Origin: Deltaproteobacteria bacterium
GTDB taxonomy: Bacteria; Desulfobacterota; Desulfobaccia; Desulfobaccales; 0-14-0-80-60-11
Length of the DNA: 64,000 nucleotides
NCBI GenBank assembly: GCA_003599195.1
Contig: QZIZ01000075.1
Coordinates: 7,705-71,704 of the forward strand
Direction of reading: 5' to 3'
A program made the position numbers and the translations under genes. The stretch's first letter is position 1. Each line of letters opens with the position of its first letter. This document shows positions 16,878 through 59,431 of this stretch, piece after piece. The notes below the pieces were generated by a model, which did not search any database, was not told where the DNA came from, and saw only the letters and a program-made list of their open reading frames with translations.

Positions 16878-16905
16878 TACTGACCACTGGCCACTGACAA
16901 CTTTT
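16878..16905. repeat. Heptamer tandem array (YACTGRC type)
   Basis: TACTGAC CACTGGC CACTGAC AACTTTT. Confidence 0.85.
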
Positions 16906-16957
16906 CATGAAGCAGCAGCATAAAAATATGAATAAATCAGGAAATATCTCCATACAC

Positions 16958-17467
16958 ATGAAACCTTTTAATCTTCCCTGTCTCCTGCTCCTCCCGGCCC
17001 TGCTCCTCTGCGGCTGCGCCGCCGGGACGGAATCGCAATCCGACGCCGAGCGCCAGGCCTTTTTTGCCGCGGCCCAGCAGGCCAACCTCCAGGGGCTGAC
17101 CTGCATGAACCCCAGGCAATACGTCGACCTTTCCGGCTATGCCCCTTACCTGGGGGTCAAATATCCGCCCACCCAATCCGTGGAAGTCCTCACCAAACCG
17201 CCGTCTAAGCCCCACCAAGCCTTTGCCTTTCTGCAATGCGCCGGCCCCGCCGCGGTCCAGCCTTCCGGGACCCTGGAGCCCGCGGTCCTGAGCGAATTAA
17301 CCAAACAGGCCAAGGCCATCGGCGCCGACGCCATCATTGTCAGGAGCGGCCGGGACCATACTAACCAAACAAACGGCGGGGCCGATAAGGTGGAAGCCGT
17401 GGCCATCAAGTACCGCCTGGAAAACCTGGAGAAAAAAAGGGAGAGCCTTGGACCAAACCTTAAATGA
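16958..17467 (+). CDS. Lipoprotein, unknown function
   Basis: MKPFNLPCLLLLPALLLCGCAAG contains a lipobox (LLCGC). The track start at 16907 is probably too early. Confidence 0.6.
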   Translation: MKPFNLPCLLLLPALLLCGCAAGTESQSDAERQAFFAAAQQANLQGLTCMNPRQYVDLSGYAPYLGVKYPPTQSVEVLTKPPSKPHQAFAFLQCAGPAAVQPSGTLEPAVLSELTKQAKAIGADAIIVRSGRDHTNQTNGGADKVEAVAIKYRLENLEKKRESLGPNLK

Positions 17468-17476
17468 ATATTAAAT

Positions 17477-17562
17477 CTCACGCAAAGACGCCAAGTCGCA
17501 AAGAAAGGCGCAAGAAATGTTAATAAATCCTTACGCCTCTGCGTCCTCTGCGTCTCTGCGAG
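17477..17562. repeat. RCARAG-arm palindromic element (imperfect)
   Basis: Left arm CTCACGCAAAGACGCCAAGTCGCAAAGAAAGGCGCAAG, right arm CTTACGCCTCTGCGTCCTCTGCGTCTCTGCGAG. The arms are complementary apart from A/G differences. Confidence 0.8.
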
Positions 17563-17580
17563 AAATTATTCTTTGGTTTT

Positions 17581-17615
17581 TACTGGCCACTGGCCACTGG
17601 CCACTGACCACTTTT
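17581..17615. repeat. Heptamer tandem array (CACTGGC type, 5 units) just 5' of the nth RBS
   Basis: TACTGGC CACTGGC CACTGGC CACTGAC CACTTTT. Confidence 0.9.
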
Positions 17616-17631
17616 CTTCTCAGGAGGCCCT

Positions 17632-18862: not shown

Positions 18863-20398
18863 ATGAAAGACCGTTCTGTTTATTTTCGCCTGGCCGTTCC
18901 TATCCTGCTCTGGGCCATCCTCCTTTTGGTCCTGTATCTTTCAAGCCTTTACAGCTTTCTCCTCTTCCACAGCATCGCCGAAATTTTCAGCATCATCATT
19001 GCCGGCGGGGTCTTTGCCCTGGCCTGGAACTCCCGCCGGGTCATTCATAATAATTATCTGCTCTTCCTGGGCATCGGCCTGCTCTTCATCGCCTTTCTGG
19101 ACCTGATCCACGCTCTGGCCTATAAGGGTATGGGGGTTTTTCCCGGCTACGGCGCCAATCTGCCCACCCAACTCTGGATCGCGGCCCGCTATCTCCAGAG
19201 CCTCACCTTTCTGGCCGCGCCTTTGCTGCTCCATCGCCGCCTCCGGCCCGGACTGGTCTTTTTGGGTTATTTTCTGGCCACCGTCCTTTTACTGCTCGCT
19301 ATTTTCCAGTGGCGGATATTCCCCGACTGCTTTGTGGAAGGCCAGGGACTGACCGCTTTCAAAAAGAACAGCGAATACCTCATCTCCCTGATCCTCCTGG
19401 GCGCCATGGGGCTTTTGCTGCAAAAGAAGCGGGACTTCGACCCTTCGGTCCTGCGCCTCTTGGTAATCTCCATCCTGTTGACCATCGGGTCCGAACTGGC
19501 CTTCACTTTTTACATCAGCGTCTATGGGTTCTCCAACATGGTGGGGCACCTGTTTAAGATCATGGCCTTTTACTGCATCTATAAAGCCATCATCGAGACG
19601 GGCCTGGTGCAGCCCTTTGCCCTGTTGTTCCGGGATCTGAAGCTGCATAAGGAAGAGCTGGAAAAGGACCGGGACACCATCAAAGAGCTTAATGTGGAAC
19701 TCATTAAACGGGTGGAGCAGTTGGAGGCCACCAACCGGGAATTGGAGGCCTTCAGCTACTCAGCCTCCCACGACCTGCAGGCGCCTCTGCGGGCGATTAC
19801 CGGCTTTTCCCAGATATTGCAAGAGGAGTACGTGGATAAACTGGATGAAGAAGCCCGGAAGTTCCTGACCATCATCCAGGACAACAGCCAAAAGATGCGG
19901 CTCCTGATCCGCAGCCTCCTCGATCTTTCCCGCATGGAACGCCGGGAACTGAATATTTGCGAGGTTAATATGGAGGAGCTGGTCTTCTCCGTATTTGCGC
20001 AACAAAACGGCGCCGCGGCCAGAGTTCCCGAATTGACCATCAAACCCCTGCCCCCTGCCCGGGGCGACCTGGTGTTGCTGCGGCAGGTCTTGGACAACCT
20101 CCTGGCCAACGCCCGCAAATTCACCCAAACCCGGGAGGCTCCGGTTATTGAAGTGGGAGGCAGCAGCGATGAGGGTGAGAACGTCTATTACGTCCAAGAC
20201 AACGGCATCGGCTTTGATATGAAGTACGCCGAGAGAATCTTCGAAAGCTTTCAACGCCTTCACAGCGAAGAGCATTTCGCCGGCGCCGGCATCGGCCTGG
20301 CCCTGGTCAGCCGCATCATCCACCGCCATGGCGGCCGGGTCTGGGCGGAGGCAAAACCTGGAGAAGGAGCTGTCTTCTATTTCACCCTGCCCCGGTGA
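18863..20398 (+). CDS. Membrane sensor histidine kinase (multi-TM N-terminal sensor, coiled coil, HisKA, HATPase)
   Basis: About 7 hydrophobic segments, H-box FSYSASHDLQAPLR, N-box LLANARKF, G-boxes DNGIGF and GAGIGLA. Confidence 0.85.
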   Translation: MKDRSVYFRLAVPILLWAILLLVLYLSSLYSFLLFHSIAEIFSIIIAGGVFALAWNSRRVIHNNYLLFLGIGLLFIAFLDLIHALAYKGMGVFPGYGANLPTQLWIAARYLQSLTFLAAPLLLHRRLRPGLVFLGYFLATVLLLLAIFQWRIFPDCFVEGQGLTAFKKNSEYLISLILLGAMGLLLQKKRDFDPSVLRLLVISILLTIGSELAFTFYISVYGFSNMVGHLFKIMAFYCIYKAIIETGLVQPFALLFRDLKLHKEELEKDRDTIKELNVELIKRVEQLEATNRELEAFSYSASHDLQAPLRAITGFSQILQEEYVDKLDEEARKFLTIIQDNSQKMRLLIRSLLDLSRMERRELNICEVNMEELVFSVFAQQNGAAARVPELTIKPLPPARGDLVLLRQVLDNLLANARKFTQTREAPVIEVGGSSDEGENVYYVQDNGIGFDMKYAERIFESFQRLHSEEHFAGAGIGLALVSRIIHRHGGRVWAEAKPGEGAVFYFTLPR

Positions 20399-20399: not shown

Positions 20400-20478
20400 G
20401 CGGTCTCTGCGTCCTCTGCGTCTCTGCGGTGAACAAAAGGGGGAATTCACCGCAGAGACGCAGAGAGCGCAGAGAATA
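20400..20478. repeat. RCARAG-arm palindromic element, near-identical to 63485-63566
   Basis: GGTCTCTGCGTCCTCTGCGTCTCTGCGGTGAA-caaaaggggg-AATTCACCGCAGAGACGCAGAGAGCGCAGAGAA. It starts 2 nt after the kinase stop codon. Confidence 0.9.
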
Positions 20479-21738: not shown

Positions 21739-23406
21739 TCATTCAAAATCGCTAAGGTCAAAATCAAAATCAGAAAGATCATCTTGCATTCTCTTATCTA
21801 GTTCTTGTTCAATAATTCTTTTTTTAAGCTCTTCGCTCAATATTTTTGCCCGCTCATGAATAAATTTCTCATAATCATCATCCCAAATCCCAAATTTCTC
21901 AAAATCGCCGATAAGATGGGTCATCATAGTTTTTTCAATTTGTTCTTCATTAACCTTAATAAATCTTTTCATGTAGGTAGATGGAGATTTTGCACCAATT
22001 TCTCTTTTATTAAGAAAATCGTCGACGATAGTGATGTTTAAAATATGATTCGCATCCCAATCATCTATTCCATTTTTTATTAAATATGCTTTCGGAAAAA
22101 AATGGTGGTAATTTTTGCTGTTTGCCTGTTTTAACCAATAATTACTAATATTAACTATAGAGTTATCGTTAAACGACTTTGGTTGGTGGTGGGCATAAAC
22201 GCATAATATCGCTTTAATATAAGCTCTACCTGCATTGAACCCACCGTTACGAACGATGAAGTCGGGAGAAGTATTAATCCCCCAATCATATTTAGGTAGT
22301 TCTTCGTTTAGAATTAAATCAATTCTTTTTATATCTTGGGCAAGTTTACTCTCGAGACTAGAGGAGTATCTATCTGAAAGAGAACAACGCCAAAAATAGT
22401 CTTGTAAATATTTCCGTTTATTTCCAGTTGGCCTATCGTTATGGTGATAAAAAAAATAGGCGAAGGGGACAATTAGAGCATTATATGGCAATAGTTGAGA
22501 TACTGGAATCCTATAAAAATTTCTAAAATATTCTACGGCTCTCTCTATTGAGTCTACAACATCATTCCATACATTTATGAACTTATTTTTATTAAGTTTT
22601 AGAATTTGTTTCTTTGTGCACTCCTTCTCTAAAACAATAGAGACAGTTTGAAGGACTGTGGCATCGGAAATTGTTTCATAATTTATCGGGGTTAACTTTT
22701 CTATAAGTTTTCTATATTTTTCCGCTAAATCAAAGTCTTGCTCAGCATCAAATGTCTTGGCAACCATAATTTCAAATACAGTAAGTTGTTTGCCGCCTAC
22801 ATTTATACGTGTAAATATTTCTGTTGCCACATCGATTGGTGCTTCTTTTATAAGGATAATTGAATAATTATACGATTCAATTCTTGTTTTATAGTCCTCT
22901 AACTTTTGGAGAAACCTATGAGGATAACGGGATAACAAAATTATCCCACCATACAGGAGATCAGTAATTCTAATTAAAGACCGTTCATCAATTCCCTCTT
23001 TATCCAGTATTACAATTTCTTCATCTTCGTTTGCTTCGAGATTAATATACATTTCCGCATAGTCATCAATTTTCCCATAATCCCTTTCAATTTTTACCCC
23101 TTTCAGGCTGGCGAATAGACTTGTTAATCTTTGCTGTCCATCAAGAACATATTCAATATAATCGCCTTCATCCGGGATGGGTAATCTAAAATTCCCAATA
23201 TCTCTAATAGCTCTTAATCTTTCTTTGGTTTTCCAAAATATAAGGGTCCCGATTGGGTAACCTTTAATGATGCTATCCATCAAGTTAGCAGATTTCTTTA
23301 AGTCCCAAACAAATTCTCTTTGAAATTGTGGAATTTTAATTTGCCCCTTTTCGATATCATTTAGCAAGCCTTTGAAATTCCGCGGACTAGTTTCAGGGAG
23401 ATACAT
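21739..23406 (-). CDS. GmrSD-like DUF262/DUF1524 protein (candidate modification-dependent type IV restriction nuclease)
   Basis: N-terminal IPQFQREFVW...VLDGQQRLTSL (DUF262 DGQQR signature). C-terminal YHHFFPKAYL...NHILNITIVDDFLNKR (His-Me/DUF1524-like). Acidic tail DLSDFDFDLSDFE. The gene and its flanks are visibly much more AT-rich than the surrounding DNA. Confidence 0.85.
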   Translation of the reverse strand: MYLPETSPRNFKGLLNDIEKGQIKIPQFQREFVWDLKKSANLMDSIIKGYPIGTLIFWKTKERLRAIRDIGNFRLPIPDEGDYIEYVLDGQQRLTSLFASLKGVKIERDYGKIDDYAEMYINLEANEDEEIVILDKEGIDERSLIRITDLLYGGIILLSRYPHRFLQKLEDYKTRIESYNYSIILIKEAPIDVATEIFTRINVGGKQLTVFEIMVAKTFDAEQDFDLAEKYRKLIEKLTPINYETISDATVLQTVSIVLEKECTKKQILKLNKNKFINVWNDVVDSIERAVEYFRNFYRIPVSQLLPYNALIVPFAYFFYHHNDRPTGNKRKYLQDYFWRCSLSDRYSSSLESKLAQDIKRIDLILNEELPKYDWGINTSPDFIVRNGGFNAGRAYIKAILCVYAHHQPKSFNDNSIVNISNYWLKQANSKNYHHFFPKAYLIKNGIDDWDANHILNITIVDDFLNKREIGAKSPSTYMKRFIKVNEEQIEKTMMTHLIGDFEKFGIWDDDYEKFIHERAKILSEELKKRIIEQELDKRMQDDLSDFDFDLSDFE

Positions 23407-23738
23407 TGGGCACCCCTTACGGAAGATATACGCGTAACCTCATACACCGCATACCAAAAATGGTTTTTGGGGCATTTTTCTCGAGTTAAACTCCGAAAAA
23501 GTTCCTTTTTTCAATAACCGAATTGCCTTGGCATAATATCACAAATTTCCGGGGTATGGTGTTTTTTGAAAGTTGGCCATTCTTGATAACTTGCCACATT
23601 AGACAGTTATCAGTGGAGCGCGAAAAATTCCAGATATGATCCGATTATATGGAAAATTATTGACAGACGCCAGTTTGATGCGGATGCGTCCCTATTCTTG
23701 ATGGTGGGTAGTGCAAATATTACCAGGATGGAGTTTTT

Positions 23739-24812
<1,074 letters not shown>

Positions 24813-24818
24813 TTTCAT

Positions 24819-24975
24819 CTGGTTCCCAAGCTGCGCTTGGGAACCCACTTGGCTGCGAAGCTTTGCTTCGCCGGTTATGTATTGGGTAAATTGTCTATGG
24901 TGCTTGTAACTAGCCCGGCCAAGCAGAGCTTGGCCTCCAAGTGCGTTCCCAAGCGGAGCTTGGGAACGAGAAGAG
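24819..24975. mobile_element. MITE-like element, copy 1 (terminal inverted hairpins GGTTCCCAAGC...GCTTGGGAACC)
   Basis: Left end CTGGTTCCCAAGCTGCGCTTGGGAACCCACTTGGCTGCGAAGCTTTGCTTCGC. Right end CCAAGCAGAGCTTGGCCTCCAAGTGCGTTCCCAAGCGGAGCTTGGGAACGAG. Second copy at 36989-37132. Confidence 0.8.
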
Positions 24976-24993
24976 ACGGTGCCATGCTGACAG

Positions 24994-25347
24994 CTAAATC
25001 GCTTGCTTGGAAAGTTCCGCCACCTTAGCGAACCCCGATGGATCAAACAGCGCCAAATCCGCCAACGCCTTGCGGTCCAGGTTGATCTGGGCCTTTTTCA
25101 GGCCGCCGATGAATTTGCTGTAGGACATGCCCAGGGGACGCAGGGCTGCGTTGATGCGGACGATCCACAGGGCCCGGAACTCGCGTTTCCGCACCTTGCG
25201 GTCCCGGTAGGCGAACGTCAGGGCCTTTTCCACGGCTTCCCGGGCGGAGCGGTAGAGGCGGCGCCGGCCGCTGCGGTAACCGCTGGCCATGCTTAGAAAT
25301 TTTTTGCGTCGGGCCCGGGAGGCCACACTTTTTCTCACGCGTGACAT
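24994..25347 (-). CDS. rplT: 50S ribosomal protein L20
   Basis: [43 protein letters not shown] is canonical L20. Confidence 0.95.
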
Positions 25348-25361
25348 GGGGTACTCCTATT

Positions 25362-25559
25362 TTAAACGTAAGGTAAGAGGCGTTTCAGGTTCTTCTCATC
25401 GGTCCCGGTGAGATAATCCGGCAGCCTTAAATGCCGTTTCCGTTTTCGGGACTTGCTGGTCAAAATGTGGCGCTGATTGGGGTTTTTCCTTTTCAGCCGG
25501 CCGCTGGCAGTGGCGCGGAAGCGCTTGGCCGCACCCCGATGGGTCTTCATCTTCGGCAT
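25362..25559 (-). CDS. rpmI: 50S ribosomal protein L35
   Basis: [25 protein letters not shown] is canonical L35. Confidence 0.95.
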
Positions 25560-25580
25560 AACGTAAACCTCTTAAAAACA

Positions 25581-25709
25581 GTTTTTAGTTTTTGGTTTTT
25601 AGTAAAACAAATGCCTTCCTCGGCCAATTCAAGAAGCAACCGGCTTCCCTCGCCAGAGATGGTTTAACTTTTAATGATAACTTAAAACTAAAAACTAAAA
25701 ACCAAAAAC
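25581..25709. repeat. Inverted pair of heptamer arrays bracketing the infC-rpmI intergenic core
   Basis: GTTTTTA GTTTTTG GTTTTTA (25581-25601) versus TTAAAAC TAAAAAC TAAAAAC CAAAAAC (25682-25709), about 80 nt apart. Confidence 0.9.
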
Positions 25710-25711
25710 CA

Positions 25712-26221
25712 TCATTTGGGAGTGACGATCATACTCAGGTTCCGGCCTTCCAGTTTGGGGTGCTGCTCCACTGTGGCGATATCCCCCAAGGCCTCGGAAA
25801 TCTGGGCCAGAATACGGAAACCCCGGTCGGTATGGGCGATCTCCCGGCCCCGGAAGATCACGGAAATTTTGACCTTATCCCCTTCGGTCAAAAAGCGCCG
25901 GGCGTTTCGCATCTTAAAGGCCATATCGTGTTCCTCGATCTTGGGCCGCACCTTGATCTCTTTGACCTGGATGGTGGTTTGCCGCCGCCGGGCTTCCTGC
26001 TGTTTTTTGCTCTGTTGATACTTGTACTTGCCATAATCCATGATGCGGCACACCGGCGGATTGGCCTGGGGAGCCACTTCCACCAGATCCAGGTTGGCCT
26101 CCGCAGCCATGGCCAGGGCTTCCCTGACGGGCATAACTCCGACCTGCTGGCCGTCGGCCCCGATCAAGCGGATTTCGGGAACCTTGATCTGTTCGTTGAT
26201 TCTCACGCGCTGCTTCTGGAT
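25712..26221 (-). CDS. infC: Translation initiation factor IF-3, probable non-canonical AUC start
   Basis: RINEQIKVPEIRLIGADGQQVGVM... is canonical IF-3. AGGAGG lies 8 nt upstream of the in-frame ATC at 26221; the track GTG at 26206 is 23 nt from the SD. Confidence 0.88.
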   Translation of the reverse strand: MQKQRVRINEQIKVPEIRLIGADGQQVGVMPVREALAMAAEANLDLVEVAPQANPPVCRIMDYGKYKYQQSKKQQEARRRQTTIQVKEIKVRPKIEEHDMAFKMRNARRFLTEGDKVKISVIFRGREIAHTDRGFRILAQISEALGDIATVEQHPKLEGRNLSMIVTPK

Positions 26222-29874: not shown

Positions 29875-29879
29875 AGATA

Positions 29880-29921
29880 GCTGTCAGCTTGCAGCGGTCA
29901 GCTTTCAGCTTTGAACTTCGA
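29880..29921. repeat. Heptamer tandem array (GCNNTCA type, 6 units)
   Basis: GCTGTCA GCTTGCA GCGGTCA GCTTTCA GCTTTGA ACTTCGA, starting 6 nt after the stop codon. Confidence 0.9.
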
Positions 29922-29949
29922 ACTGGAGGCCTCTACAAACGCCACCCTT

Positions 29950-30100: not shown

Positions 30101-30138
30101 ATGAGAAGATTTTGACAAAGTCTCAATACGAACTTTGA

Positions 30139-30187
30139 TCAATGATCACTGACCACTGGCCACAGAACTGGGAACTGGGAACTTAAT
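30139..30187. repeat. Heptamer tandem array (7 units, drifting unit) ending at the mtaD RBS
   Basis: TCAATGA TCACTGA CCACTGG CCACAGA ACTGGGA ACTGGGA ACTTAAT. Confidence 0.9.
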
Positions 30188-38778: not shown

Positions 38779-38841
38779 CCACTGATCACTGATCACTGAT
38801 TACTGATTACTGATCACTGGCCCCTGACCCCTGGCCACTCT
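38779..38841. repeat. Heptamer tandem array (9 units, YCACTGA type) abutting the ruvA stop codon
   Basis: CCACTGA TCACTGA TCACTGA TTACTGA TTACTGA TCACTGG CCCCTGA CCCCTGG CCACTCT. Confidence 0.9.
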
Positions 38842-40810: not shown

Positions 40811-40845
40811 ACCGAAGACCGTAGACCGCAGACCGAAGACCGTCA
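40811..40845. repeat. Heptamer tandem array (ACCGNAG, 5 units) abutting the ruvC stop codon
   Basis: ACCGAAG ACCGTAG ACCGCAG ACCGAAG ACCGTCA. Confidence 0.9.
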
Positions 40846-42881: not shown

Positions 42882-42944
42882 GCAGTAGCCAGTGGCCAGT
42901 AGCCAGTAGCCAGTAAACAGCAATCAATGATCAGTGATTAATCG
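42882..42944. repeat. Heptamer tandem array (CCAGTRG type, 9 units) upstream of rlmE
   Basis: GCAGTAG CCAGTGG CCAGTAG CCAGTAG CCAGTAA ACAGCAA TCAATGA TCAGTGA TTAATCG. This is the reverse complement of the CACTGGC family. Confidence 0.9.
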
Positions 42945-47332: not shown

Positions 47333-47403
47333 GGTTTTCGGTTTCCGGTTTTCGGTTTTCGGCAAAATGAAAACCGGAAACCGAAAACTAAAAACTAAAA
47401 ACG
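47333..47403. repeat. Inverted heptamer arrays forming a long hairpin between fliR and flhB
   Basis: GGTTTTC GGTTTCC GGTTTTC GGTTTTC gg-caaaat-GAAAACC GGAAACC GAAAACT AAAAACT AAAAACG. Confidence 0.9.
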
Positions 47404-54643: not shown

Positions 54644-54647
54644 GGCA

Positions 54648-54696
54648 GTTTTTAGTTTTTAGTTTTTAGTTCGAAGAAGTCTAGGGTCTTCAGTCT
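54648..54696. repeat. Heptamer tandem array (GTTTTTA x3 drifting to NNAGTCT) 5 nt after the operon's last stop codon
   Basis: GTTTTTA GTTTTTA GTTTTTA GTTCGAA GAAGTCT AGGGTCT TCAGTCT. Confidence 0.9.
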
Positions 54697-54875: not shown

Positions 54876-54918
54876 TCCCTCTCCCCCCAGGGGGGGAGAG
54901 GGTTAGGGTGGGGGGGGG
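54876..54918. repeat. CCCTCTCCC-type hairpin element copy
   Basis: TTCCCTCTCCCCCCAGGGGGGGAGAGGGTTAGGGTGGGGGGGG. Confidence 0.85.
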
Positions 54919-54979
54919 TCGGAAAAAACTTTTGGCAACAAATACCAATCATGATCCAATCTTATCGATATTTTCATAA

Positions 54980-55014
54980 CTTGGAACCTGGAACCTGGAA
55001 CTTGGAACTTTCTA
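54980..55014. repeat. Heptamer tandem array (CYTGGAA, 4-5 units) upstream of ade
   Basis: CTTGGAA CCTGGAA CCTGGAA CTTGGAA CTTTCTA. Confidence 0.9.
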
Positions 55015-55035: not shown

Positions 55036-56754
55036 ATGGATATCAACAAATGGCAACAGCGCCTTAAAGCCGCGCGGGGCGAAATCCCCGCGGACCTGGT
55101 GCTCACCGGCGGGCAGGTGGCCTGCGTCTATTCCGGGCAGTGGCTTAAAAAAGACGTGGCCGTATTTGACGGCGTCATCATCGGCCTGGGGGATTACTCC
55201 GGCCCCCGCGTCGACATTTCCGGCCGCTATCTCCTGCCGGGCCTGATCGACGGCCATCTGCATCTCGAAAGCAGCATGCTCACCCCCCGGGAACTGGCCC
55301 GGGCCCTGCTGCCCCTGGGCGCCACCACGGTGGTGGCCGACCCCCATGAAATCGCCAATGTCTTGGGGGCCAAAGGGTTGGATTATATCCTGGCCGCAAG
55401 CGACGGCCTGCCTCTGGACCTCTTCTTCATGCTCCCTTCCTGCGTCCCCGCTTCGCCCCTGGAGACCGCAGGCGCGGCGCTGGAAGCTGCGGATCTTAAA
55501 CCTTACATAAACCATCCCCGGGTCCTAGGCCTGGCGGAAGTGATGAATTTCCCGGGAGTGGTGTCCGGGGACCCGGGCCTGTTGGAGATGATCGCCCTCT
55601 TTCCCCAGCGGGCGGTGGACGGCCATGCTCCCCTGCTGTCCGGCAAGGACCTGAACGCCTACCGCCTGGCGGGCGTCAATTCCGATCATGAATGCACCAA
55701 TGCCCCGGAAGCATTGGAAAAATTGGAGATGGGCTTTTACGTCCAGGTCCGGGAAGGCAGCCTGGCCAAAAATTTGGCGGACCTGTTGCCGGTAGTGACA
55801 CCCGCCTCGATCCGGCGCACCATGCTGGTTACCGACGATTGCCACCCCGCGGACCTGTTGGAAAACGGCCACCTCAACCATCTCCTGCGCCTGGCGGTGT
55901 CCCGGGGTCTGGACCCCCTGGCCGCCGTCACCATGGCCACCCTCAACCCCGCGGAATACTTCGGACTGAAGGACCGGGGCGCGATCGCGCCGGGTTTGGC
56001 CGCGGACCTGGTGATAGTAAAAGACCTCAAAGAATTCCGCGTCGACAAGGTTCTGAAAAACGGCAAAATTGTGGTGGATGGCGGCCGCCTGACCGCTGAA
56101 CCGGTGATCCCCCCCTACCCTGCCCCTCCTCCGGCCATGAACGTCAAGATGCCGGGAGCGGACGCCCTTTTTCCCATCGCCACCGACGATATGGTCAAAG
56201 TCATCGGTCTCATCCCCGGCCAATTGCTCACGGAAAAACGGATTTTGCCCGCGCCGCTCCATAACGGCCGCCTGGCCGCGGACCCGGCCCGGGATCTTTT
56301 GAAACTGGCGGTCCTGGAGCGCCACCGCGCCACCGGCAACCTGGGACTCGCCCTGGTCCAGGGCTTCGGCCTAAAACAGGGCGCCCTGGCCTCCACCGTG
56401 GCCCATGATTCCCACAACATCGTGGCGGTGGGGGCCGATGAAACGGACATGCTCCTGGCCATGGAGCATCTGGTGAAACTTAAGGGCGGCCTGGCCGTGG
56501 CCGCCGGCGGCCGGGTGCTGGCGGACCTGGCGCTCCCCATCGCCGGTCTCATCAGCCCCGAGCCCCTGGAGGCCGTGGCCGCGGCCTACGGCCGCCTCCT
56601 GGAAGCCTACCGCCAACTGGGAGGAGGGCTCCCCGACCCCTTCATGGCCCTCTCCTTTTTGGCCCTGCCGGTAATCCCGGCTTTAAAACTGACGGACCTG
56701 GGGCTGGTGGACGTGAATAAGTTTGAGGTGGTGCCGCTTTTCGGGGAAGATTAG
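55036..56754 (+). CDS. ade: Adenine deaminase
   Basis: PGLIDGHLHLESSML metal-binding motif and full-length Ade layout (VVADPHEIANV, DGHAP, SDHE, THDSHNIV). Confidence 0.9.
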   Translation: MDINKWQQRLKAARGEIPADLVLTGGQVACVYSGQWLKKDVAVFDGVIIGLGDYSGPRVDISGRYLLPGLIDGHLHLESSMLTPRELARALLPLGATTVVADPHEIANVLGAKGLDYILAASDGLPLDLFFMLPSCVPASPLETAGAALEAADLKPYINHPRVLGLAEVMNFPGVVSGDPGLLEMIALFPQRAVDGHAPLLSGKDLNAYRLAGVNSDHECTNAPEALEKLEMGFYVQVREGSLAKNLADLLPVVTPASIRRTMLVTDDCHPADLLENGHLNHLLRLAVSRGLDPLAAVTMATLNPAEYFGLKDRGAIAPGLAADLVIVKDLKEFRVDKVLKNGKIVVDGGRLTAEPVIPPYPAPPPAMNVKMPGADALFPIATDDMVKVIGLIPGQLLTEKRILPAPLHNGRLAADPARDLLKLAVLERHRATGNLGLALVQGFGLKQGALASTVAHDSHNIVAVGADETDMLLAMEHLVKLKGGLAVAAGGRVLADLALPIAGLISPEPLEAVAAAYGRLLEAYRQLGGGLPDPFMALSFLALPVIPALKLTDLGLVDVNKFEVVPLFGED

Positions 56755-56976
56755 TTCAAAGTTCAAGGTTCAAGGTTCAAGGTTCAAGGTTCAAGGTTCA
56801 AGGTTCAAGGTCATGAAGCTTTAACCTTGAACTTTGATGGCACTGTAAAAAGTCAGAAAATTGCCGATTTTTTGAAATTGCTATTAATAAAATCAGCCAC
56901 TTAAAATATGATCCTGGAAATTTCCGACTTTTTACCAGGGCATCAACTTTGAACCTTGAACCTTGAACTCTTAACT
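56753..56976. repeat. Nested inverted-repeat region: (RGTTCAA)x8 array, inner inverted repeat, then (TTGAACY)x3-4 array
   Basis: 56753-56808 AGTTCAA x2 plus GGTTCAA x6. 56821-56837 TTAACCTTGAACTTTGA. Inner inverted repeat TGTAAAAAGTCAGAAAATT (about 56845) versus GGAAATTTCCGACTTTTTACC (about 56916). 56943-56976 TTGAACC TTGAACC TTGAACT CTTAACT. Confidence 0.9.
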
Positions 56977-56991
56977 CATAACGGAGGCGCT

Positions 56992-57975
56992 ATGAGCCTA
57001 GTCCTCACCGGTTCCCAAGTCATGCAGGTCCTGAACATGGACCTGGCCCTGGCCGCGGCCCAGGAGGCCTTTCAGGCCTACGGCGAAGGCCGGGTGAACA
57101 TGCCGCCCAAGTCCTATCTGCAACTGGCCCAAGGCGACTTCCGGGCCATGTACGGCGAGATCTTTCTGACCCAGGCCCACATCTGCGGCTTGAAATGGGT
57201 AAACGTGCATCCGGGAAACCCGGCCAAGGGTCTGCTCACGGTGATGGCCAAGATCATTATCAATGATCCGGAAACGGGTCTCGAGTTCGCGGACCTGGAC
57301 GGCACCCATGTCACCGATTTCCGCACCGGGGCCGCCGGCGGCCTGGCCGCCAAATACCTGGCCCGGCCCGATGCCTCCAGGCTGGGTCTCATCGGCCTCG
57401 GGGCCCAGGCCCGGACCCAGTTGGCCGCGGTTCTGAAAGTCCGGCCCATCCAGGAGGTGGTGGTTTTCGACCGCCATCTGGCTCATGCCCAAGGCTTTGC
57501 GGATTACGTCACCGCCACCTATGGAGTGGCGGCCCGGGCCGCGGCCGACGCCAGGGACGCGGTGCGGGACCTGGACATCGTCACCACCACCACCCCCAGC
57601 GGCCGGCCCATAGTCATGGCGGACTGGGTCTCGCCCGGAACCCACATCAACGCCATCGGCGCGGACGCCGCGGGCAAGCAGGAGTTGGACCCGGCCATCC
57701 TCCAGGCCGCCAAAATCGTGGTGGACGACTGGGCCCAGGCCTCCCACTCCGGGGAGATCAACGTGCCCCTGGCCCAGGGAAAAATTAAACCGGAACAGAT
57801 CTATGGTTCCCTGGGGGAAATCGCCGCCGGCAAGAAACCGGGCCGGACCGATGCTGCCGAAATCACCGTCTTCGATTCCACCGGCCTCATCATTCAGGAC
57901 CTGGCCCTGGCCTATGCGGTCTGCCAAAAGGCCCGGGCATCCGGCCTGGGCGAGGAGAAGGATTTCTTAAAATGA
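56992..57975 (+). CDS. Ornithine cyclodeaminase/mu-crystallin family NAD-dependent enzyme
   Basis: LGLIGLGAQARTQL Rossmann motif, ...GTHINAIGAD..., family-typical length. The ATG at 56992 follows GGAGG. Confidence 0.85.
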   Translation: MSLVLTGSQVMQVLNMDLALAAAQEAFQAYGEGRVNMPPKSYLQLAQGDFRAMYGEIFLTQAHICGLKWVNVHPGNPAKGLLTVMAKIIINDPETGLEFADLDGTHVTDFRTGAAGGLAAKYLARPDASRLGLIGLGAQARTQLAAVLKVRPIQEVVVFDRHLAHAQGFADYVTATYGVAARAAADARDAVRDLDIVTTTTPSGRPIVMADWVSPGTHINAIGADAAGKQELDPAILQAAKIVVDDWAQASHSGEINVPLAQGKIKPEQIYGSLGEIAAGKKPGRTDAAEITVFDSTGLIIQDLALAYAVCQKARASGLGEEKDFLK

Positions 57976-58121
57976 GGGCGTGGCAGTAACTTACCGGGAA
58001 TCTCCCATGGGAAATTCTCTTGAGCCTTTACAAACCTCTCAGATTAAATATATAGATGGATGGGCGAAATATGGCCCCGGCCATTATCGCCAACCTTCTT
58101 GCCCCAAGGAGATAACGCAGC

Positions 58122-59393
58122 TTGACTATGCGCGGGATGGAAAACGGGTTTTCGCCCATGAGGACTGGGGCGCAACCCCAAGATTATCCGCCGGGGGCAG
58201 CGGAGAAGACAACCCATTTCCAAAGAATTGCCTGGCTGCTCTTTTGCGGCGTTTCCCTGCAGTTGACGTTCCTTAACCCGTCGATAATCCTGCTTCCCGG
58301 AGAACGCACCAACCTGTTTTCGGGGTTATTGTGCGCCATCTCCCTGGCCGCGACGATCTGCATCGCCAGGAAAGGGGACCTGGTCCGGAGCCGCGGCGAG
58401 GCCGCGATCTATCTGTCCCTGGTGGGATTGGTGCTCCTGAGCGGGTTGGTCAGCTCCGCTCCTCTGACCAATTCTTTGCGGGGACTGGTGCTTCTGGCCT
58501 CCGGTCTCGGAGGATTCTGGGGAGCCAGGGTCCTGCTGGCCGCGGAAGCCAGGCAACGGTACTTCCTCCGGCTCGCTCTCTTGATGTTAGCGGGCTTTCT
58601 CCTGGTGGGCCTGGTCTCTTATCTGCTTTCAGGGAAGATTACCACGGCCATGGATCCCAAATACCATTCCCTGGCCACCAAAACCATGCTTCTCTGGTTT
58701 GCGCCCCTGACCCTCCTGTGGGGGAGCACTGCCAAGAAAATTATGGGCGCCGTCCTCATCGGCCTGAGCTACCTGCTCTTTTCCCTGACGGAGTTGCGCT
58801 CCGCGATGCTGCTGCCTTTAATCCTCGGCCTGCTGGCGGTATTTATCGGCAGGCTGCGGGTGCGGTATTTTCTGTTGATTCTTCTGGCATCCTCAGCCGT
58901 GCTCTTCTATTTCATCCGCCATCTGCCCTACTATAAAATGGGCATGGAATATGAGCCGGCCTACTACCGGGTGGAGAACATCGCTTTTTCCTGGCACGTT
59001 GCCCTGAAACACCCGCTCCTGGGCATCGGCCTCCTGACGCCCAGGGAGGAATTCCTGAAAGATTATGAAATTAAATATCCTTACGTCACCCGGGAGGAAT
59101 TCAGTAAGTCCTTAGGAGCCATCAAAGTCGCCGACAATATGCTGCTCACCTTTATGGTGGGCGTAGGCATCCCCTTTGTTTTAATCTACTGCCTTTCATT
59201 AATAAAACTTATGAAAGTACTGGTGGGCGCCATCTATACGCAAACGGAAACCACTACCATTCCGCCGTTGGCGCTATTTCTGCCGTTGGTCAGCGCCCTG
59301 TTGTCATTTTTCATCTACGACATCCTGCTGCACCCCCAGGTGTGCTGGTTCTTCCATCTGCTGTTGGGCCTGATTCCCTGGCGGCGGCAGTGA
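58122..59393 (+). CDS. O-antigen ligase/polymerase-like (Wzy_C-type) polytopic membrane protein; start uncertain (58122-58158)
   Basis: About 10 TM segments with a central loop region (TELRSAMLLPLILGLLAVF...) typical of the O-antigen ligase family. Confidence 0.65.
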   Translation: MTMRGMENGFSPMRTGAQPQDYPPGAAEKTTHFQRIAWLLFCGVSLQLTFLNPSIILLPGERTNLFSGLLCAISLAATICIARKGDLVRSRGEAAIYLSLVGLVLLSGLVSSAPLTNSLRGLVLLASGLGGFWGARVLLAAEARQRYFLRLALLMLAGFLLVGLVSYLLSGKITTAMDPKYHSLATKTMLLWFAPLTLLWGSTAKKIMGAVLIGLSYLLFSLTELRSAMLLPLILGLLAVFIGRLRVRYFLLILLASSAVLFYFIRHLPYYKMGMEYEPAYYRVENIAFSWHVALKHPLLGIGLLTPREEFLKDYEIKYPYVTREEFSKSLGAIKVADNMLLTFMVGVGIPFVLIYCLSLIKLMKVLVGAIYTQTETTTIPPLALFLPLVSALLSFFIYDILLHPQVCWFFHLLLGLIPWRRQ

Positions 59394-59403
59394 AGACAAA
59401 GAC

Positions 59404-59431
59404 CGTTTTCAGTTTTCTGTTTTCTGTTTTC
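59404..59431. repeat. Heptamer tandem array (NGTTTTC, 4 units)
   Basis: CGTTTTC AGTTTTC TGTTTTC TGTTTTC. Confidence 0.9.

What the first reader, a model, noticed from the sequence alone, without database searches (positions are those of the whole stretch)
16878..59431. Intergenic heptanucleotide tandem arrays with many different unit sequences, often abutting stop codons
At least sixteen non-coding sites carry 3-9 tandem units with a strict 7-nt period but varying sequence: CACTGGC/CACTGAC/CACTGAT, GCTTTTC/GCNNTCA, GTTTTTA, GGTTTTC, ACCGNAG, CYTGGAA, GGTTCAA and NGTTTTC. They lie at 16878, 17581, 24764, 25581, 25682, 29880, 30139, 38779, 40811, 42882, 47333, 54648, 54980, 56753, 56943 and 59404. 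Several begin within 0-6 nt of a stop codon (ruvA, ruvC, ade, the transglycosylase, the last flagellar gene). Others end at a ribosome-binding site (nth, mtaD, the OCD-family gene) or fill the pheS leader. Units drift along an array, and arrays occur as inverted pairs. The only analogue I know is the STRR heptamer repeats of filamentous cyanobacteria, whose function is unresolved. Such density around operon junctions suggests a role in termination, RNA processing or recombination, or a dedicated generating mechanism.
Basis: seen in the sequence. Interest (0 to 1): 0.7.

Follow-up and report, generated by a model that had tools for sequence, protein, structure and literature searches.

The report
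Heptamer repeat arrays flanking intergenic spacers
An uncultured sulfate-reducer-type bacterium carries short 7-base tandem repeats at both ends of its gene-to-gene spacers, a new and unusually orderly example of the unexplained heptamer repeats already known from cyanobacteria, Beggiatoa, Xanthomonas and Geobacter.

Summary
I find 17 period-7 arrays in 12 spacers. Twelve of them pass a strict three-copy test, against 0.05 expected by chance. All lie in the 13% of the window that is non-coding, and each sits within 27 nt of a gene boundary.

The window comes from an uncultured Thermodesulfobacteriota MAG. Its clade has 2.7-4.2 arrays per 10 kb. About 1.7 Mb of other Thermodesulfobacteriota loci have 0.2-0.4.

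Relatives at 86-95% gene identity carry arrays at the same spacer ends. Copy number differs by whole 7-nt units. Unit families are sometimes replaced, one array was homogenised, and the two arms of inverted pairs change together. This points to slippage with concerted evolution, not an assembly artefact and not hypervariable phase switches.

New regularities:
- A fixed polarity: GT-rich or CAGT-type units follow stops, and AC-rich or ACTG-type units precede starts.
- Few unit families.
- Arms that fold into long stems looping out the spacer (z -6.6 to -9.8; one weaker at -2.7).

There is no terminator signature and no Rfam match.

This is a new member of the known but functionally unresolved class of bacterial intergenic heptanucleotide repeats. 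Its function is inferred only, most likely REP-like stem-loop or UTR modules in the mRNA.

The parts
16879..16902 (+). (YACTGRC)x3.4 array at the right edge of the divergent spacer, upstream of the 186-aa ORF. It shares its flanks (GGTTTTTA...CTTTTC) with the nth-leader array.
17582..17612 (+). (CACTGGC)x4.4 array ending 19 nt before the nth ATG, with GGAGG in between. It is identical in lineage A and one unit shorter in lineage B.
24764..24811 (-). pheS leader array. In the pheS sense it reads (AAAAGCG)x4 GAAGGCT GACCGCT GAAAGCT and ends 5 nt before the ATG. Lineage A has an orthologous array. L004, L102 and L100 have arrays at the same place.
25580..25603 (-). 3' arm (sense: YAAAAAC x3) of the infC-rpmI spacer stem. 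It ends 20 nt before the rpmI ATG.
25679..25711 (-). 5' arm (sense: TRGTTTT x4) of the infC-rpmI spacer stem. It starts at the base after the infC stop.
29879..29924 (+). Degenerate (GCTKTCA) array 4 nt after the SLT transglycosylase stop. The order of unit variants is conserved in lineage B. Lineage A has a GTTCCNG family here instead.
30136..30183 (+). (TGATCAC/TGACCAC/TGGCCAC) then (AACTGGG) array ending 15 nt before the mtaD-like amidohydrolase start, with GGAGG in between.
38780..38839 (-). Array 2 nt after the ruvA stop. In the ruvA sense it reads GGCCAGG GGTCAGG GGCCAGT (RATCAGT)x5. It folds on itself through TGATCA/TGGCCA cores (z -5.8). Copy number and composition differ in lineages A and B.
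40811..40842 (-). (CGGTCTN)x4 array directly after the ruvC stop, in a spacer of about 55 nt before a signal-peptide ORF. All three lineages have four units. In lineage A they are homogenised to CGGTTTT.
42883..42915 (-). (GCCAGTR)x4.7 array 27 nt upstream of the FtsJ-like methyltransferase start, in the divergent spacer with fliL. Lineages A and B carry (GCAGTRA)x6 here plus (AACCCAR) and (CCCCTGA) arrays.
47333..47362 (+). 5' arm (GGTTTYC)x4 of the fliR-flhB hairpin, 5 nt after the fliR stop.
47369..47402 (+). 3' arm (GRAAACC, GAAAACT, AAAAACT) of the fliR-flhB hairpin, ending 10 nt before the flhB ATG. The variant unit GGTTTCC in the 5' arm is mirrored by GGAAACC here.
54647..54671 (+). (GTTTTTA)x3.6 array 3 nt after the stop of the last flagellar-cluster ORF. 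Lineage A has (GTTCTTG) and lineage B has (GTTTTYC) at the same place. It is unstructured on its own (z +0.5).
54978..55010 (+). (CYTGGAA)x4.7 array ending 25 nt before the adenine deaminase start. Lineage A has (CYCGGAA/CCCAGAA) and lineage B has (YTTGAAC).
56753..56811 (+). (RGTTCAA)x8.4 array overlapping the ade stop codon. It is the 5' arm of the ade-OCD stem and has 4 units in lineage A and 3 in lineage B. The nearest partner arm is at 56822-56837.
56945..56968 (+). (YTTGAAC)x3.4 array, the distal 3' arm before the OCD-family gene RBS. In the window it is separated from the proximal arm by an insertion of about 105 nt that lineages A and B lack.
59405..59433 (+). (NGTTTTC)x4 array in the 65-nt spacer between the 423-aa and 396-aa ORFs, 11 nt after the stop.

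Best explanation
The arrays are genuine heptanucleotide microsatellites, of the class called long simple-sequence repeats. They are a heritable trait of one uncultured clade of Thermodesulfobacteriota.

Shown:
- They are resized in whole 7-nt units and occasionally homogenised or replaced. This fits slipped-strand mispairing with concerted evolution.
- They sit at the two ends of intergenic spacers with a fixed polarity. In the mRNA sense, GU-rich or CAGT-type units directly follow stop codons. AC-rich or ACTG-type units directly precede the ribosome-binding site or start codon.
- Where both ends carry the same family, the arms are complementary and change together between lineages.

Inferred:
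- On polycistronic transcripts the paired arrays fold into long stems of 20-55 bp. These loop out the whole spacer and bring the stop codon and the next start region close together.
- They would then act like REP-type intercistronic stem-loops or UTR modules, affecting transcript-segment stability, processing or translational coupling.
- Spacer expansions may be tolerated only when they fold away in this manner.
- Unpaired AC-rich arrays before starts would act as unstructured leaders, as proposed for TAACTGA repeats.

They are not terminators and not phase-variation switches.
For: Reality and excess: 12 arrays observed against 0.05 expected for period 7 only. All 17 arrays lie in the 13.3% non-coding fraction and within 27 nt of a gene boundary, even in spacers of 230-470 nt.

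Lineage trait: the window, its close lineages and relatives at 74-89% PheS identity have 2.7-4.2 arrays per 10 kb. Another 1.19 Mb and 0.56 Mb of Thermodesulfobacteriota loci have 0.19-0.44 per 10 kb. Two relatives at 79% PheS identity (L005, L104) have none.

Slippage and concerted evolution:
- The infC-rpmI arms differ by -1 and +2 units between the window and lineage A, with conserved flanks.
- The ade-OCD 5' arm has 8, 4 and 3 units in the three lineages.
- The ruvC array is CGGTCTN x4 in the window and lineage B but CGGTTTT x4 in lineage A.

Co-variation of arms:
- The infC-rpmI spacer has GTTTTTA:TAAAAAC in the window and lineage A but GTTTTGC:GCAAAAC in lineage B.
- The fliR-flhB spacer has GGTTTYC:GRAAACC in the window, with a mirrored variant unit, against RGTTTTT:YAAAAAC in lineages A and B.

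Folding: z = -6.6 (fliR-flhB), -9.8 (ade-OCD in lineage A), -8.1 (infC-rpmI in lineage B), -2.7 (infC-rpmI in the window) and -5.8 (ruvA array alone).

Polarity: 17 of 22 left-edge arrays are GT-rich and 20 of 23 right-edge arrays are AC-rich. Among clearly skewed arrays I saw only two exceptions, both in lineage A (L087): a GT 0.61 array at the right edge of site F and an AC-rich array at the spacer midpoint of site H. The pairs in L100, L101 and L105 read the same way by eye.

Persistence: arrays occupy the same spacers (infC-rpmI, rplT-pheS) in relatives at only 77-80% gene identity, but with different units.

Parallels in the literature: TAACTGA repeats point toward start codons in 147 of 170 sets and often replace the SD sequence (PMC4679880). 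Here flhB and ruvA, which are preceded by A-rich arrays, lack a GGAGG.
Against: - No function is demonstrated. Substitution identity inside arrays (87%) is not clearly higher than in the rest of the spacers (83%).
- Sense and antisense strands fold equally well, so nothing points specifically to RNA rather than DNA.
- Several arrays have no complementary partner and are unstructured (54647 at z +0.5, 17582 at z -1.2). One stem-loop role cannot cover all of them.
- The polarity is strand-symmetric, so it cannot by itself prove an mRNA-level cause.
- It might instead reflect pre-existing T-richness after stops and A-richness before starts being amplified. I did not test this.
- Many of the comparisons involve homologous arrays, so the number of independent events is about 10-20, not 54.
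Confidence: 0.5

Rival explanations
1. Neutral by-product. The clade has an elevated rate of 7-nt slippage, for instance through a polymerase or repair peculiarity. Arrays simply accumulate wherever selection allows, which is outside genes, and have no role. Edge position arises because short ancestral spacers were nearly all array and later insertions landed in the middle. Polarity arises because T-rich seeds lie after stops and A-rich seeds before starts.
For: - Arrays evolve at about the same substitution rate as the rest of the spacer.
- Unit families are freely replaced at a fixed site. Site J has three families in three lineages.
- Insertions of other palindromic elements lie between or inside arrays: the 105-nt insert in the ade-OCD 3' arm, and central elements swapped in the SLT-mtaD spacer.
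- Mrazek's slippage explanation for the heptamer excess is cited in PMC4679880 and PMC4692102.
Against: - Independent slippage at two places does not produce complementary arms, nor concerted change of both arms.
- The CAGT-after-stop and ACTG-before-start orientation has no compositional explanation.
- Only a few unit families make up 54 arrays.
- Arrays persist in the same spacers across roughly 20% gene divergence.
Confidence: 0.27
2. Periodic protein-binding platform on single-stranded RNA or DNA. Each 7-nt unit is the footprint of one OB-fold domain, such as a cold-shock protein or an S1-like domain. The T-rich GT-starting units after stops are concatenated cold-shock-protein sites. Protein loading melts or prevents the stem with the AC-rich arm and so tunes downstream translation.
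For: - B. subtilis CspB binds one heptanucleotide per protein, with consensus GTCTTTG/T (PMC1904285; reviewed in PMC4679880).
- The commonest unit families here are GTTTTNN, GTTCTTG and GTCTTCG.
- The period is strictly 7, while the sequence is only loosely constrained.
- Polarity holds in the mRNA sense.
Against: - The CAGT/ACTG families (GTGATCA, GTGGCCA) and GGTTCAA do not resemble the CspB consensus.
- No binding data exist, and no candidate protein gene lies in the window.
- 'GT' is enriched only modestly over composition-matched shuffles: 44 of 54 arrays against 66% expected.
Confidence: 0.1
3. DNA-level elements. The paired arrays would be binding sites for nucleoid proteins (IHF/HU, gyrase) or cruciform-forming sites that organise the chromosome or act as recombination and insertion hotspots. 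This was proposed for the paired tandem 7-9-mers of Geobacter metallireducens.
For: - The architecture is the same as the G. metallireducens class 1-3 sites: 3-5 tandem 7-9-nt units, paired on opposite strands at variable distance, with IS elements inserting nearby (PMC2700814).
- Folding is strand-symmetric.
- Other elements have inserted within or between arrays.
- Synteny breaks next to the 16879 and 17582 arrays.
Against: - A chromosome-organising role does not predict the precise abutment to stop codons and ribosome-binding sites.
- Unit sequences are too varied for one sequence-specific DNA-binding protein.
- There is no evidence of binding.
Confidence: 0.07
4. Scars or parts of mobile or repair processes. 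The arrays would be terminal inverted repeats of MITE-like elements, 7-bp target-site duplications accumulated by repeated insertion and excision, or break-repair products. In the repair version, GT-rich repeats are added to 3' ends and then copied by fold-back synthesis, giving the GT-then-AC 'head-to-head' polarity.
For: - The polarity is that of two GT-rich 3'-ending strands joined head to head.
- Arms are complementary, as fold-back copying would give.
- Array modules with shared flanks occur twice, at 16879 and 17582.
Against: - No whole [arm-centre-arm] module recurs at different loci. Centres are unrelated even where arm families match.
- No transposase or reverse transcriptase lies nearby.
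- Unit-number changes between lineages occur in place, with conserved flanks.
Confidence: 0.04
5. Intrinsic transcription terminators or attenuators placed at operon junctions.
For: - Several arrays start right after stop codons.
- Some are T-rich.
- Paired arrays form stable hairpins.
Against: - Terminator-like sites are not enriched (27 found against 24 expected), and no clearly paired array is called. The only array-overlapping hit is a minimal 5-pair stem at 42898-42886.
- Stems are AT-rich, and the T-rich arm is the 5' arm, not a 3' tail.
- Hairpins sit inside obligatory operons (fliR-flhB, infC-rpmI), where termination would be harmful.
Confidence: 0.02

Closest known systems
Long simple-sequence repeats with 5-11-nt units in prokaryotes (Mrazek, Guo and Shah 2007), where heptanucleotides are the commonest class
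   Same: - Tandem 7-nt units longer than chance.
- Mostly intergenic.
- Sporadic, lineage-specific distribution.
- Slippage is the proposed origin.
   Different: That survey, as summarised in PMC4679880 and PMC4692102, did not list this phylum among the repeat-rich genomes. It also did not describe the edge position, the polarity or the co-varying inverted arms seen here. I could not read the original paper.
STRR heptamers of heterocystous cyanobacteria (Calothrix, Nostoc)
   Same: - Several heptamer families in one genome.
- Intergenic tandem arrays.
- Function unresolved.
- Some units here are one substitution from STRR1 or STRR2 rotations.
   Different: The host phylum differs. None of the STRR consensus units occurs in tandem here. 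The similarity of cores is within what chance could give.
TAACTGA direct repeats of marine Beggiatoaceae, cyanobacteria and Bacteroidetes (MacGregor 2015, PMC4679880)
   Same: - Two to six heptamer units.
- Oriented toward, and within a few nt of, start codons.
- Often no canonical SD sequence.
- TCACTGA and TTACTGA units here differ from TAACTGA by one base.
   Different: BOGUAY uses essentially one unit, and only one inverted pair was found. Here there are many units, half of the arrays follow stop codons, and inverted pairs are common.
GGGAATC / GGGGAYT heptamer repeats of Xanthomonas and Nostoc (Rehm 2015, PMC4692102)
   Same: - Intergenic heptamer arrays.
- Conserved position but variable length and sequence between close species.
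- Some inverted pairs.
   Different: Those units are G-rich and form quadruplexes. The units here have no G-runs.
Paired tandem 7-9-mer 'global regulator sites' of Geobacter metallireducens (Aklujkar 2009, PMC2700814)
   Same: - Related phylogenetic neighbourhood (former Deltaproteobacteria).
- Three to five tandem units, paired on opposite strands at variable distance.
- The window's 8-9-mer family (TCTCTGCG[Y]) closely resembles the class 2 consensus TCTCCGTS[Y].
   Different: In Geobacter each class is a conserved multicopy sequence family. The heptamer arrays here are locus-specific in unit sequence.
REP/BIME intercistronic palindromes of enterobacteria
   Same: Intergenic, hairpin-forming and located in operon spacers and 3' ends. 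This is the functional analogy I propose: protection or processing of transcript segments.
   Different: REPs are a conserved 20-40-nt palindrome family spread by RAYT transposases. The stems here are built from local tandem heptamers and share no common sequence.

Membership tests
Prokaryotic long simple-sequence repeats (heptanucleotide class) | Head-to-tail repeats of a 5-11-nt unit, longer than expected by chance in that sequence | tested here: met
   12 arrays of at least 3 copies at period 7, against 0.05 in shuffles. TRF output.
Prokaryotic long simple-sequence repeats (heptanucleotide class) | Units whose length is not a multiple of 3 are confined to non-coding DNA | tested here: met
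   17 of 17 arrays lie in the 13.3% non-coding fraction.
Prokaryotic long simple-sequence repeats (heptanucleotide class) | Length change by whole units between related genomes (slippage) | tested here: met
   Changes of -1, +2 and 8/4/3 units with conserved flanks.
Prokaryotic long simple-sequence repeats (heptanucleotide class) | Sporadic, lineage-specific abundance | tested here: met
   2.7-4.2 arrays per 10 kb in the clade, against 0.19-0.44 in 1.75 Mb of other Thermodesulfobacteriota loci.
Cyanobacterial STRR | Tandem copies of the STRR consensus heptamers (CCCCAGT, TTGGTCA, CAACAGT; units recalled from memory) | tested here: not met
   No tandem copy of any of them on either strand. The nearest units are one substitution away.
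Cyanobacterial STRR | Host is a filamentous, heterocystous cyanobacterium | tested here: not met
   The nearest genomes are Thermodesulfobacteriota or 'delta proteobacterium' MAGs. NCBI names the MAG Deltaproteobacteria bacterium.
TAACTGA repeat network | Direct repeats of TAACTGA itself | tested here: not met
   TAACTGA occurs twice as a singleton and never in tandem.
TAACTGA repeat network | Forward orientation immediately upstream of start codons | tested here: met
   ACTG-type arrays precede the 186-aa ORF, nth, mtaD and the FtsJ-like gene in the sense orientation. The mirror CAGT-type arrays follow stops.
REP/BIME/REPIN | One conserved imperfect palindrome family repeated across the genome | tested here: not met
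   Arm units differ from spacer to spacer, and no shared arm-centre-arm module recurs.
REP/BIME/REPIN | Associated RAYT transposase in the genome | not testable with these tools
   Only 64 kb of the MAG is available. No transposase is present in the window.
Contingency loci (phase-variable SSRs) | Repeat lies inside an ORF or in promoter spacing, so that unit changes switch expression | tested here: not met
   All arrays lie between a stop codon and the next ribosome-binding site or start.
Contingency loci (phase-variable SSRs) | High variability between very close strains | tested here: not met
   L088 and L092 differ by 52 SNPs and no indels over 11.3 kb spanning about 8 arrays. L087 and L092 differ by 84 SNPs and no indels in their main 8.5-kb aligned block. 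Read-level data were not available.
Intrinsic terminators | GC-rich stem followed by a T-run | tested here: not met
   No enrichment: 27 sites found against 24.0 expected. No clearly paired array is called, and the only array-overlapping hit is a minimal 5-pair stem at 42898-42886. The stems are AT-rich.
Known structured RNAs (Rfam), e.g. the L20 leader in the infC-rpmI region | Match to a curated covariance model | tested here: not met
   Only a tRNA reaches gathering score in the window. In 24700-30300, only far-sub-threshold eukaryotic miRNA-precursor-like hairpin hits appear.
G. metallireducens paired tandem-repeat sites | Three to five tandem 7-9-nt units, paired on opposite strands at variable distance, intergenic | tested here: met
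   Inverted pairs at 25580/25679, 47333/47369 and 56753/56945, plus all the 8-9-mer pairs.
G. metallireducens paired tandem-repeat sites | Membership of the conserved consensus classes (GTTGCTYN, TCTCCGTS[Y], MTYCTGA) | tested here: inconclusive
   No tandem MTYCTGA is present. The 8-9-mer TCTCTGCG[Y] resembles class 2, but no alignment to the Geobacter copies was possible.

The most novel reading that the evidence does not exclude
In this clade, operon junctions would be punctuated by evolvable stems built from heptamers. The GU-rich 5' arm would be a concatemer of one-protein-per-heptamer sites for a cold-shock-domain or other OB-fold RNA chaperone, since the units resemble the CspB consensus GTCTTTG/T. 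Chaperone abundance would then decide whether the spacer folds away or opens, giving genome-wide, temperature- or stress-titrated control of intercistronic coupling. The 7-nt period would be the protein footprint, not a polymerase property. That would also give a testable function for STRR and TAACTGA-type repeats in other phyla.
Probability: 0.08. Interest if true: 0.8.

Novelty: new member of a known kind. Interest (0 to 1): 0.45.

Why it matters
Intergenic heptamer repeats have been known in bacteria since 1990 (STRR) and were shown in 2007 to be the commonest long microsatellite class, yet their function is still unknown. This clade offers a clean comparative data set. Three lineages at 86-95% identity, plus more distant relatives, carry arrays at the same gene junctions. 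This reveals regularities that any explanation must meet:
- edge position,
- a fixed polarity relative to stops and starts,
- co-varying complementary arms,
- few unit families,
- whole-unit resizing without hypervariability.

Those rules can be checked directly in cyanobacteria, Beggiatoaceae and Xanthomonas, where experiments are possible. For annotation, the arrays explain mis-called ORF starts, such as the 119-aa ORF after ruvC. They also mark true cistron boundaries.

Tried and rejected
- **Assembly artefact: rejected.** Orthologous arrays occur in independent assemblies from other samples.
- **Terminators: rejected.**
- **Known RNA families: none found.**
- **Sense-versus-antisense folding energy, as a test for RNA-level selection through G-U pairs: no bias, uninformative.**
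- **Extra sequence conservation of arrays relative to the rest of the spacer: 87% against 83%, not convincing.** Repeat alignment also biases the comparison.
- **A universal 'GT' anchor in every unit: dropped.** It is only modestly above composition-matched shuffles (44 of 54 against 66%), and several arrays have other constant cores.
- **General self-complementarity of units: only the GTGATCA and GTGGCCA families reach 6 of 7.** The overall distribution matches random 7-mers.
- **Identity with published units (STRR1-3, TAACTGA, GGGAATC, GGGGATT, GGACCGG, TTCAAAA, MTYCTGA): none occurs in tandem.** One-substitution resemblances are within chance for this many comparisons.
- **Population-level length variation: mostly untestable.** Most same-lineage contigs from different samples are 100% identical, so they carry no information. 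One pair at 99.5% identity shows no array indels.
- **Stop codons in all three frames as the purpose of 7-nt arrays: not general.** Many units contain no stop codon. This is from inspection of the and sequences.
- **Two exact-protein look-ups beyond window position 57,735 found nothing.**
- **The Mrazek 2007 paper itself is not in the library.**

Full report

The sequences read as described. I ran a census over periods 4-15, requiring at least 3 copies and excluding units of lower periodicity. Period 7 gives 12 arrays against 0.05 in shuffles. Every other period from 5 to 15 gives 0-2. With a slightly laxer score there are 17 arrays in 12 spacers.

Gene positions came from the gene calls of an identical metagenome contig. 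Against those, all 17 arrays lie in the 13.3% of the annotated span that is non-coding. Each is within 27 nt of a gene boundary, even though many spacers are 230-470 nt long. Arrays after stops begin 0-5 nt downstream for infC, ruvA, ruvC, SLT, fliR and the last flagellar-cluster ORF. The ade array overlaps the stop, and the array after the 423-aa ORF starts 11 nt downstream. Arrays before starts end 4-27 nt upstream, usually leaving room for GGAGG.

Small corrections are listed under the observation check.

**2. Whose genome is it, and is this a property of the lineage?**

The window is identical to JGI metagenome contig Ga0104756_1000323 over its first ~57.7 kb by coordinate mapping, checked base by base for 3582-26215. 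Its proteins are those of an NCBI MAG named 'Deltaproteobacteria bacterium', with accessions RJR419xx on a contig of 81.6 kb. The nearest species representatives by PheS identity are uncultured Thermodesulfobacteriota MAGs at 79-81%.

These searches gave natural controls. Array density is as follows:

| Group | Arrays per 10 kb |
|---|---|
| Window | 2.7 |
| Two close lineages (A and B) | 4.2 |
| Relatives at 74-89% PheS identity | 3.6 |
| 1.19 Mb of other GTDB Thermodesulfobacteriota loci | 0.19 |
| 0.56 Mb of other metagenome loci | 0.44 |

Two relatives at 79% PheS identity (L005, L104) have none. The trait is therefore heritable, specific to one clade and patchy. That matches how long simple-sequence repeats are described in prokaryotes (PMC4679880).

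**3. How do the arrays evolve?**

Exact-protein look-ups retrieved syntenic contigs of two related lineages:
- A: L084, L087, L089-L091.
- B: L088, L094-L099.

Their genes are 86-95% identical to the window in nucleotide sequence. L004 and L008 are 77-80% identical. I extracted every array-bearing spacer between conserved gene anchors.

(a) Arrays occupy the same spacer ends in all three lineages. For infC-rpmI and rplT-pheS this also holds in L004, L008, L100, L101 and L102.

(b) Copy number differs by whole units with conserved flanks:
- The infC-rpmI arms differ by -1 and +2 units.
- The ade-OCD 5' arm has 8, 4 and 3 units.
- The nth leader has 4, 4 and 3 units.

(c) Some degenerate arrays keep their order of unit variants. 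Examples are the SLT-stop array and the ruvC-stop array, each compared between the window and lineage B. These arrays are not being rapidly turned over.

(d) Elsewhere a whole array has been homogenised. CGGTCTN x4 became CGGTTTT x4 in lineage A.

(e) Elsewhere again the unit family has been replaced:
- After the last flagellar ORF: GTTTTTA, GTTCTTG or GTTTTYC in the three lineages.
- Before ade: CYTGGAA, CYCGGAA or YTTGAAC.

(f) Same-lineage contigs from different samples are mostly 100% identical and so carry no information. One pair at 99.5% identity has 52 SNPs and no indel across about 8 arrays.

Together this is the behaviour of slippage plus concerted evolution at a moderate rate. It is not the behaviour of contingency loci.

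**4. Anatomy that goes beyond 'microsatellite'**

First, many arrays are the two arms of an inverted pair that brackets the whole spacer:
- infC-rpmI: TRGTTTT x4 ... YAAAAAC x3.
- fliR-flhB: GGTTTYC x4, an 8-nt loop, then GRAAACC...
- ade-OCD: RGTTCAA x8 ... YTTGAAC.

In relatives the same holds for the SLT-mtaD and rplT-pheS spacers. The predicted stems are far more stable than shuffles, with z of -6.6, -9.8 and -8.1, and -2.7 for the longest-looped one.

Second, the arms change together:
- The infC-rpmI arms are GTTTTTA:TAAAAAC in the window and lineage A, but GTTTTGC:GCAAAAC in lineage B.
- In the window's fliR-flhB stem, the single variant unit GGTTTCC is mirrored by GGAAACC at the pairing position.

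Third, there is a fixed polarity. Reading either strand, left-edge arrays are GT-rich (17 of 22) and right-edge arrays are AC-rich (20 of 23). Among clearly skewed arrays I saw only two exceptions, both in lineage A. The orientation 'CAGT on the left, ACTG on the right' holds in every case I examined, including independent spacers of L004 and L105. In mRNA terms, GU-rich or CAGT-type units follow stops and AC-rich or ACTG-type units precede starts. The 8-9-mer pairs in the same window occur in both polarities, so the rule is not trivial.

Fourth, the 54 distinct arrays collected use few families:
- GTTTTNN, about 20 arrays.
- GTTCNNN, about 10 arrays.
- A CAGT family built on TGATCA/TGGCCA palindromic cores, about 12 arrays. 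These can fold on themselves (z -5.8).
- GTCTTCG.

Fifth, long spacers have the arrays at their edges and other palindromic elements in the middle. Short spacers consist of little but the arrays, for example fliR-flhB at 85 nt, ruvC to the next gene at about 55 nt, and ade-OCD in lineages A and B. The window's ade-OCD spacer has a 105-nt insertion inside the 3' arm. This suggests the array stem is the basic module and that later insertions land inside it.

**5. What the arrays are not**

- They are not terminators. Terminator-like sites are not enriched (27 found against 24 expected). The only hit overlapping an array is a minimal 5-pair stem at 42898-42886. The stems are AT-rich with the T-rich arm on the 5' side, and they sit inside obligatory operons.
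- They match no known RNA family.
- They are not copies of any published heptamer unit. STRR1-3, TAACTGA, GGGAATC, GGGGATT, GGACCGG, TTCAAAA and MTYCTGA never occur in tandem here. One-substitution resemblances, such as TCACTGA/TTACTGA against TAACTGA or AACTGGG against the STRR1 complement, are within chance.
- They are not REP-like multicopy families, because the centres and units are locus-specific.

**6. Most likely explanation, and its limits**

Shown:
- The arrays are slippage-resized heptanucleotide microsatellites.
- They are a clade trait.
- They are confined to spacer edges, polar, and often form complementary arms that co-vary.

Inferred: on polycistronic mRNAs the paired arrays fold into long stems that loop out the spacer. 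With the stem formed, the stop codon and the next ribosome-binding site are only about 15-25 nt apart. They would then behave like REP-type intercistronic stem-loops, affecting segment stability, RNase III-type processing or translational coupling. Alternatively, spacer expansion may be tolerated only when it folds away. AC-rich arrays before starts would be unstructured leaders. The genes that follow A-rich arrays (flhB, ruvA) lack GGAGG, as reported for TAACTGA-preceded genes (PMC4679880).

Complementarity could be maintained by selection. It could also be maintained mechanically by intrastrand template switching that copies one arm onto the other. I cannot separate these two.

Against a functional reading:
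- Substitution identity in arrays (87%) is not clearly above the rest of the spacer (83%).
- Sense and antisense strands fold equally well.
- Several arrays have no partner and no structure.
- The polarity is strand-symmetric, so it might come from amplifying T-rich sequence after stops and A-rich sequence before starts. I did not test this.

I therefore give the combined statement 0.5 and a purely neutral by-product 0.27. The remaining weight is spread over a protein-platform model, a DNA-level or nucleoid model, a mobile-element or repair-scar model, and terminators. The protein-platform model rests on one OB-fold domain binding one heptamer, with CspB consensus GTCTTTG/T (PMC1904285).

**7. 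Comparison with what is known, and novelty**

The class is known:
- Heptanucleotides are the most abundant long simple-sequence repeats in repeat-rich prokaryotes (Mrazek 2007, via PMC4679880 and PMC4692102).
- STRR heptamers occur in cyanobacteria.
- TAACTGA repeats point toward start codons in Beggiatoaceae, cyanobacteria and Bacteroidetes, in 147 of 170 sets.
- GGGAATC and GGGGAYT arrays occur in Xanthomonas and Nostoc. Their position is conserved, their length varies, and some form inverted pairs.
- Other heptamers lie near Nostoc start codons, with some reporter effects.
- Paired tandem 7-9-mers occur in Geobacter metallireducens.

None of these has an established function. The present case is a new member of that class in a new lineage. 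The multi-lineage comparison adds edge position, polarity, co-varying arms and moderate stability. These are useful constraints, not a new kind of system. The host is uncultured, which limits experiments. Interest is moderate (0.45).

Noticed in passing
window 17536-17560, 20403-20475, 28397-28500, 33377-33511, 34835-34903 and 34989-35011, 42093-42221, 60699-60723, 63492-63567: A second repeat class: three tandem 8-9-nt units (TCTCTGCG[Y], TCTTTGCG, CTCTGTG[Y]), almost always as inverted pairs forming hairpins. They often sit right after genes, for example after the MASE3 kinase stop. The copies at 20404 and 63492 are nearly identical. They occur in both polarities, unlike the heptamers, and closely resemble the 'class 2' paired sites TCTCCGTS[Y] of Geobacter metallireducens (PMC2700814).
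   Followed up: partly
window 24815-24974 and 36989-37129: Two copies of a composite palindromic element of about 160 nt, built from GTTCCCAAGC-N3-GCTTGGGAAC hairpins (60-nt arms, 82-85% complementary). One lies in the rplT-pheS spacer and one downstream of PEPCK. The rplT-pheS copy is absent from the same spacer in lineages A and B, so the element is probably mobile (MITE-like).
   Followed up: partly
window 38429-38489; L094-L099 rplT-pheS spacer: A perfect 25-bp hairpin, GTAGGGGCGAACCTTGTGTTCGCCC...GGGCGAACACAAGGTTCGCCCCTAC. In the window and in lineages A and B it lies downstream of the methyltransferase. In lineage B a second copy replaces the heptamer arrays in the rplT-pheS spacer. It looks like a REP-like mobile hairpin.
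   Followed up: partly
window 29952-30098; also L094 around the 58-aa/169-aa spacer: An inverted-repeat element, GTCATTCTGA...GAGCGAAGCG...AGAATCT // AGATTCT...CGCTTCGCTC...TCAGAATGAC. It fills the middle of the SLT-mtaD spacer in the window and lineage A. Lineage B has an unrelated G/C-palindrome element there, while a related copy (shared 3' half) sits in a different spacer of lineage B.
   Followed up: partly
window 16779-16850, 28594-28714, 31641-31806, 54877-54902: Clusters of inverted CCCTCTCCCC / GGGGAGAGGG motifs in several long spacers. This is yet another intergenic palindrome family.
   Followed up: no
window 21739-23406 (region 22001-24000 has GC 0.38 against about 0.56): A low-GC island encoding a GmrSD_N-family protein between pheS and the metallophosphoesterase. 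Lineages A and B have small HTH-domain ORFs there instead. No pheT follows pheS.
   Followed up: partly
window 18863-20398: A MASE3 histidine kinase gene lies between DUF3568 and the metallophosphoesterase in the window but is absent at that position in lineages A and B. It is followed immediately by an 8-9-mer hairpin at 20404-20475.
   Followed up: no
window 40499-40858 (- strand): The called 119-aa ORF overlaps the ruvC stop and would translate the heptamer array. A downstream ATG near 40790 gives an N-terminus that looks like a signal peptide (MVRLKFLIAVIWVGLFLLPLLA), so the real start is probably there and the array is intergenic. Relatives show similar over-extended calls.
   Followed up: partly
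window 37149-39423: ruvA is not followed by ruvB. Downstream lie a small conserved ORF (about 72 aa in lineage A) and an N6_N4 DNA methyltransferase. Between ruvC and ruvA the window has the signal-peptide ORF and a 261-aa ORF, the latter without counterpart in lineages A and B, which have only the small ORF.
   Followed up: no
window about 28160-28235 (- strand), and the same position in L004, L005, L008: A conserved hairpin followed by a T-run (GGCATCTGGG...CC(C/G)GAGGTGCC TTTTTTT) lies immediately upstream of the thrS start in all four genomes, after a conserved promoter-like TTGAC...TAT(A/G)AGA region. It is probably a thrS attenuator. No Rfam family matched.
   Followed up: partly
L128 3-96 and 3155-3294; L112 1163-1260; L120 3-127; L122 472-585: More distant Desulfobacterales-like metagenome contigs also carry long heptamer arrays around pheS. 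Examples are (GATGTTK)x20 starting 5 nt after the PheS match, (CTTTCAC)x14, and inverted (GACGAAT)x5/(TCATTCG)x4 pairs. The phenomenon therefore recurs sporadically elsewhere in the phylum with unrelated units.
   Followed up: partly
window 47397-47415; L087 and L088 upstream of ruvA; window 39424-39460: Genes preceded by A-rich arrays (flhB, ruvA) share a leader ending AAAACGGTNTNT(N)AAA-ATG and have no GGAGG. This suggests Shine-Dalgarno-independent initiation at these genes.
   Followed up: partly
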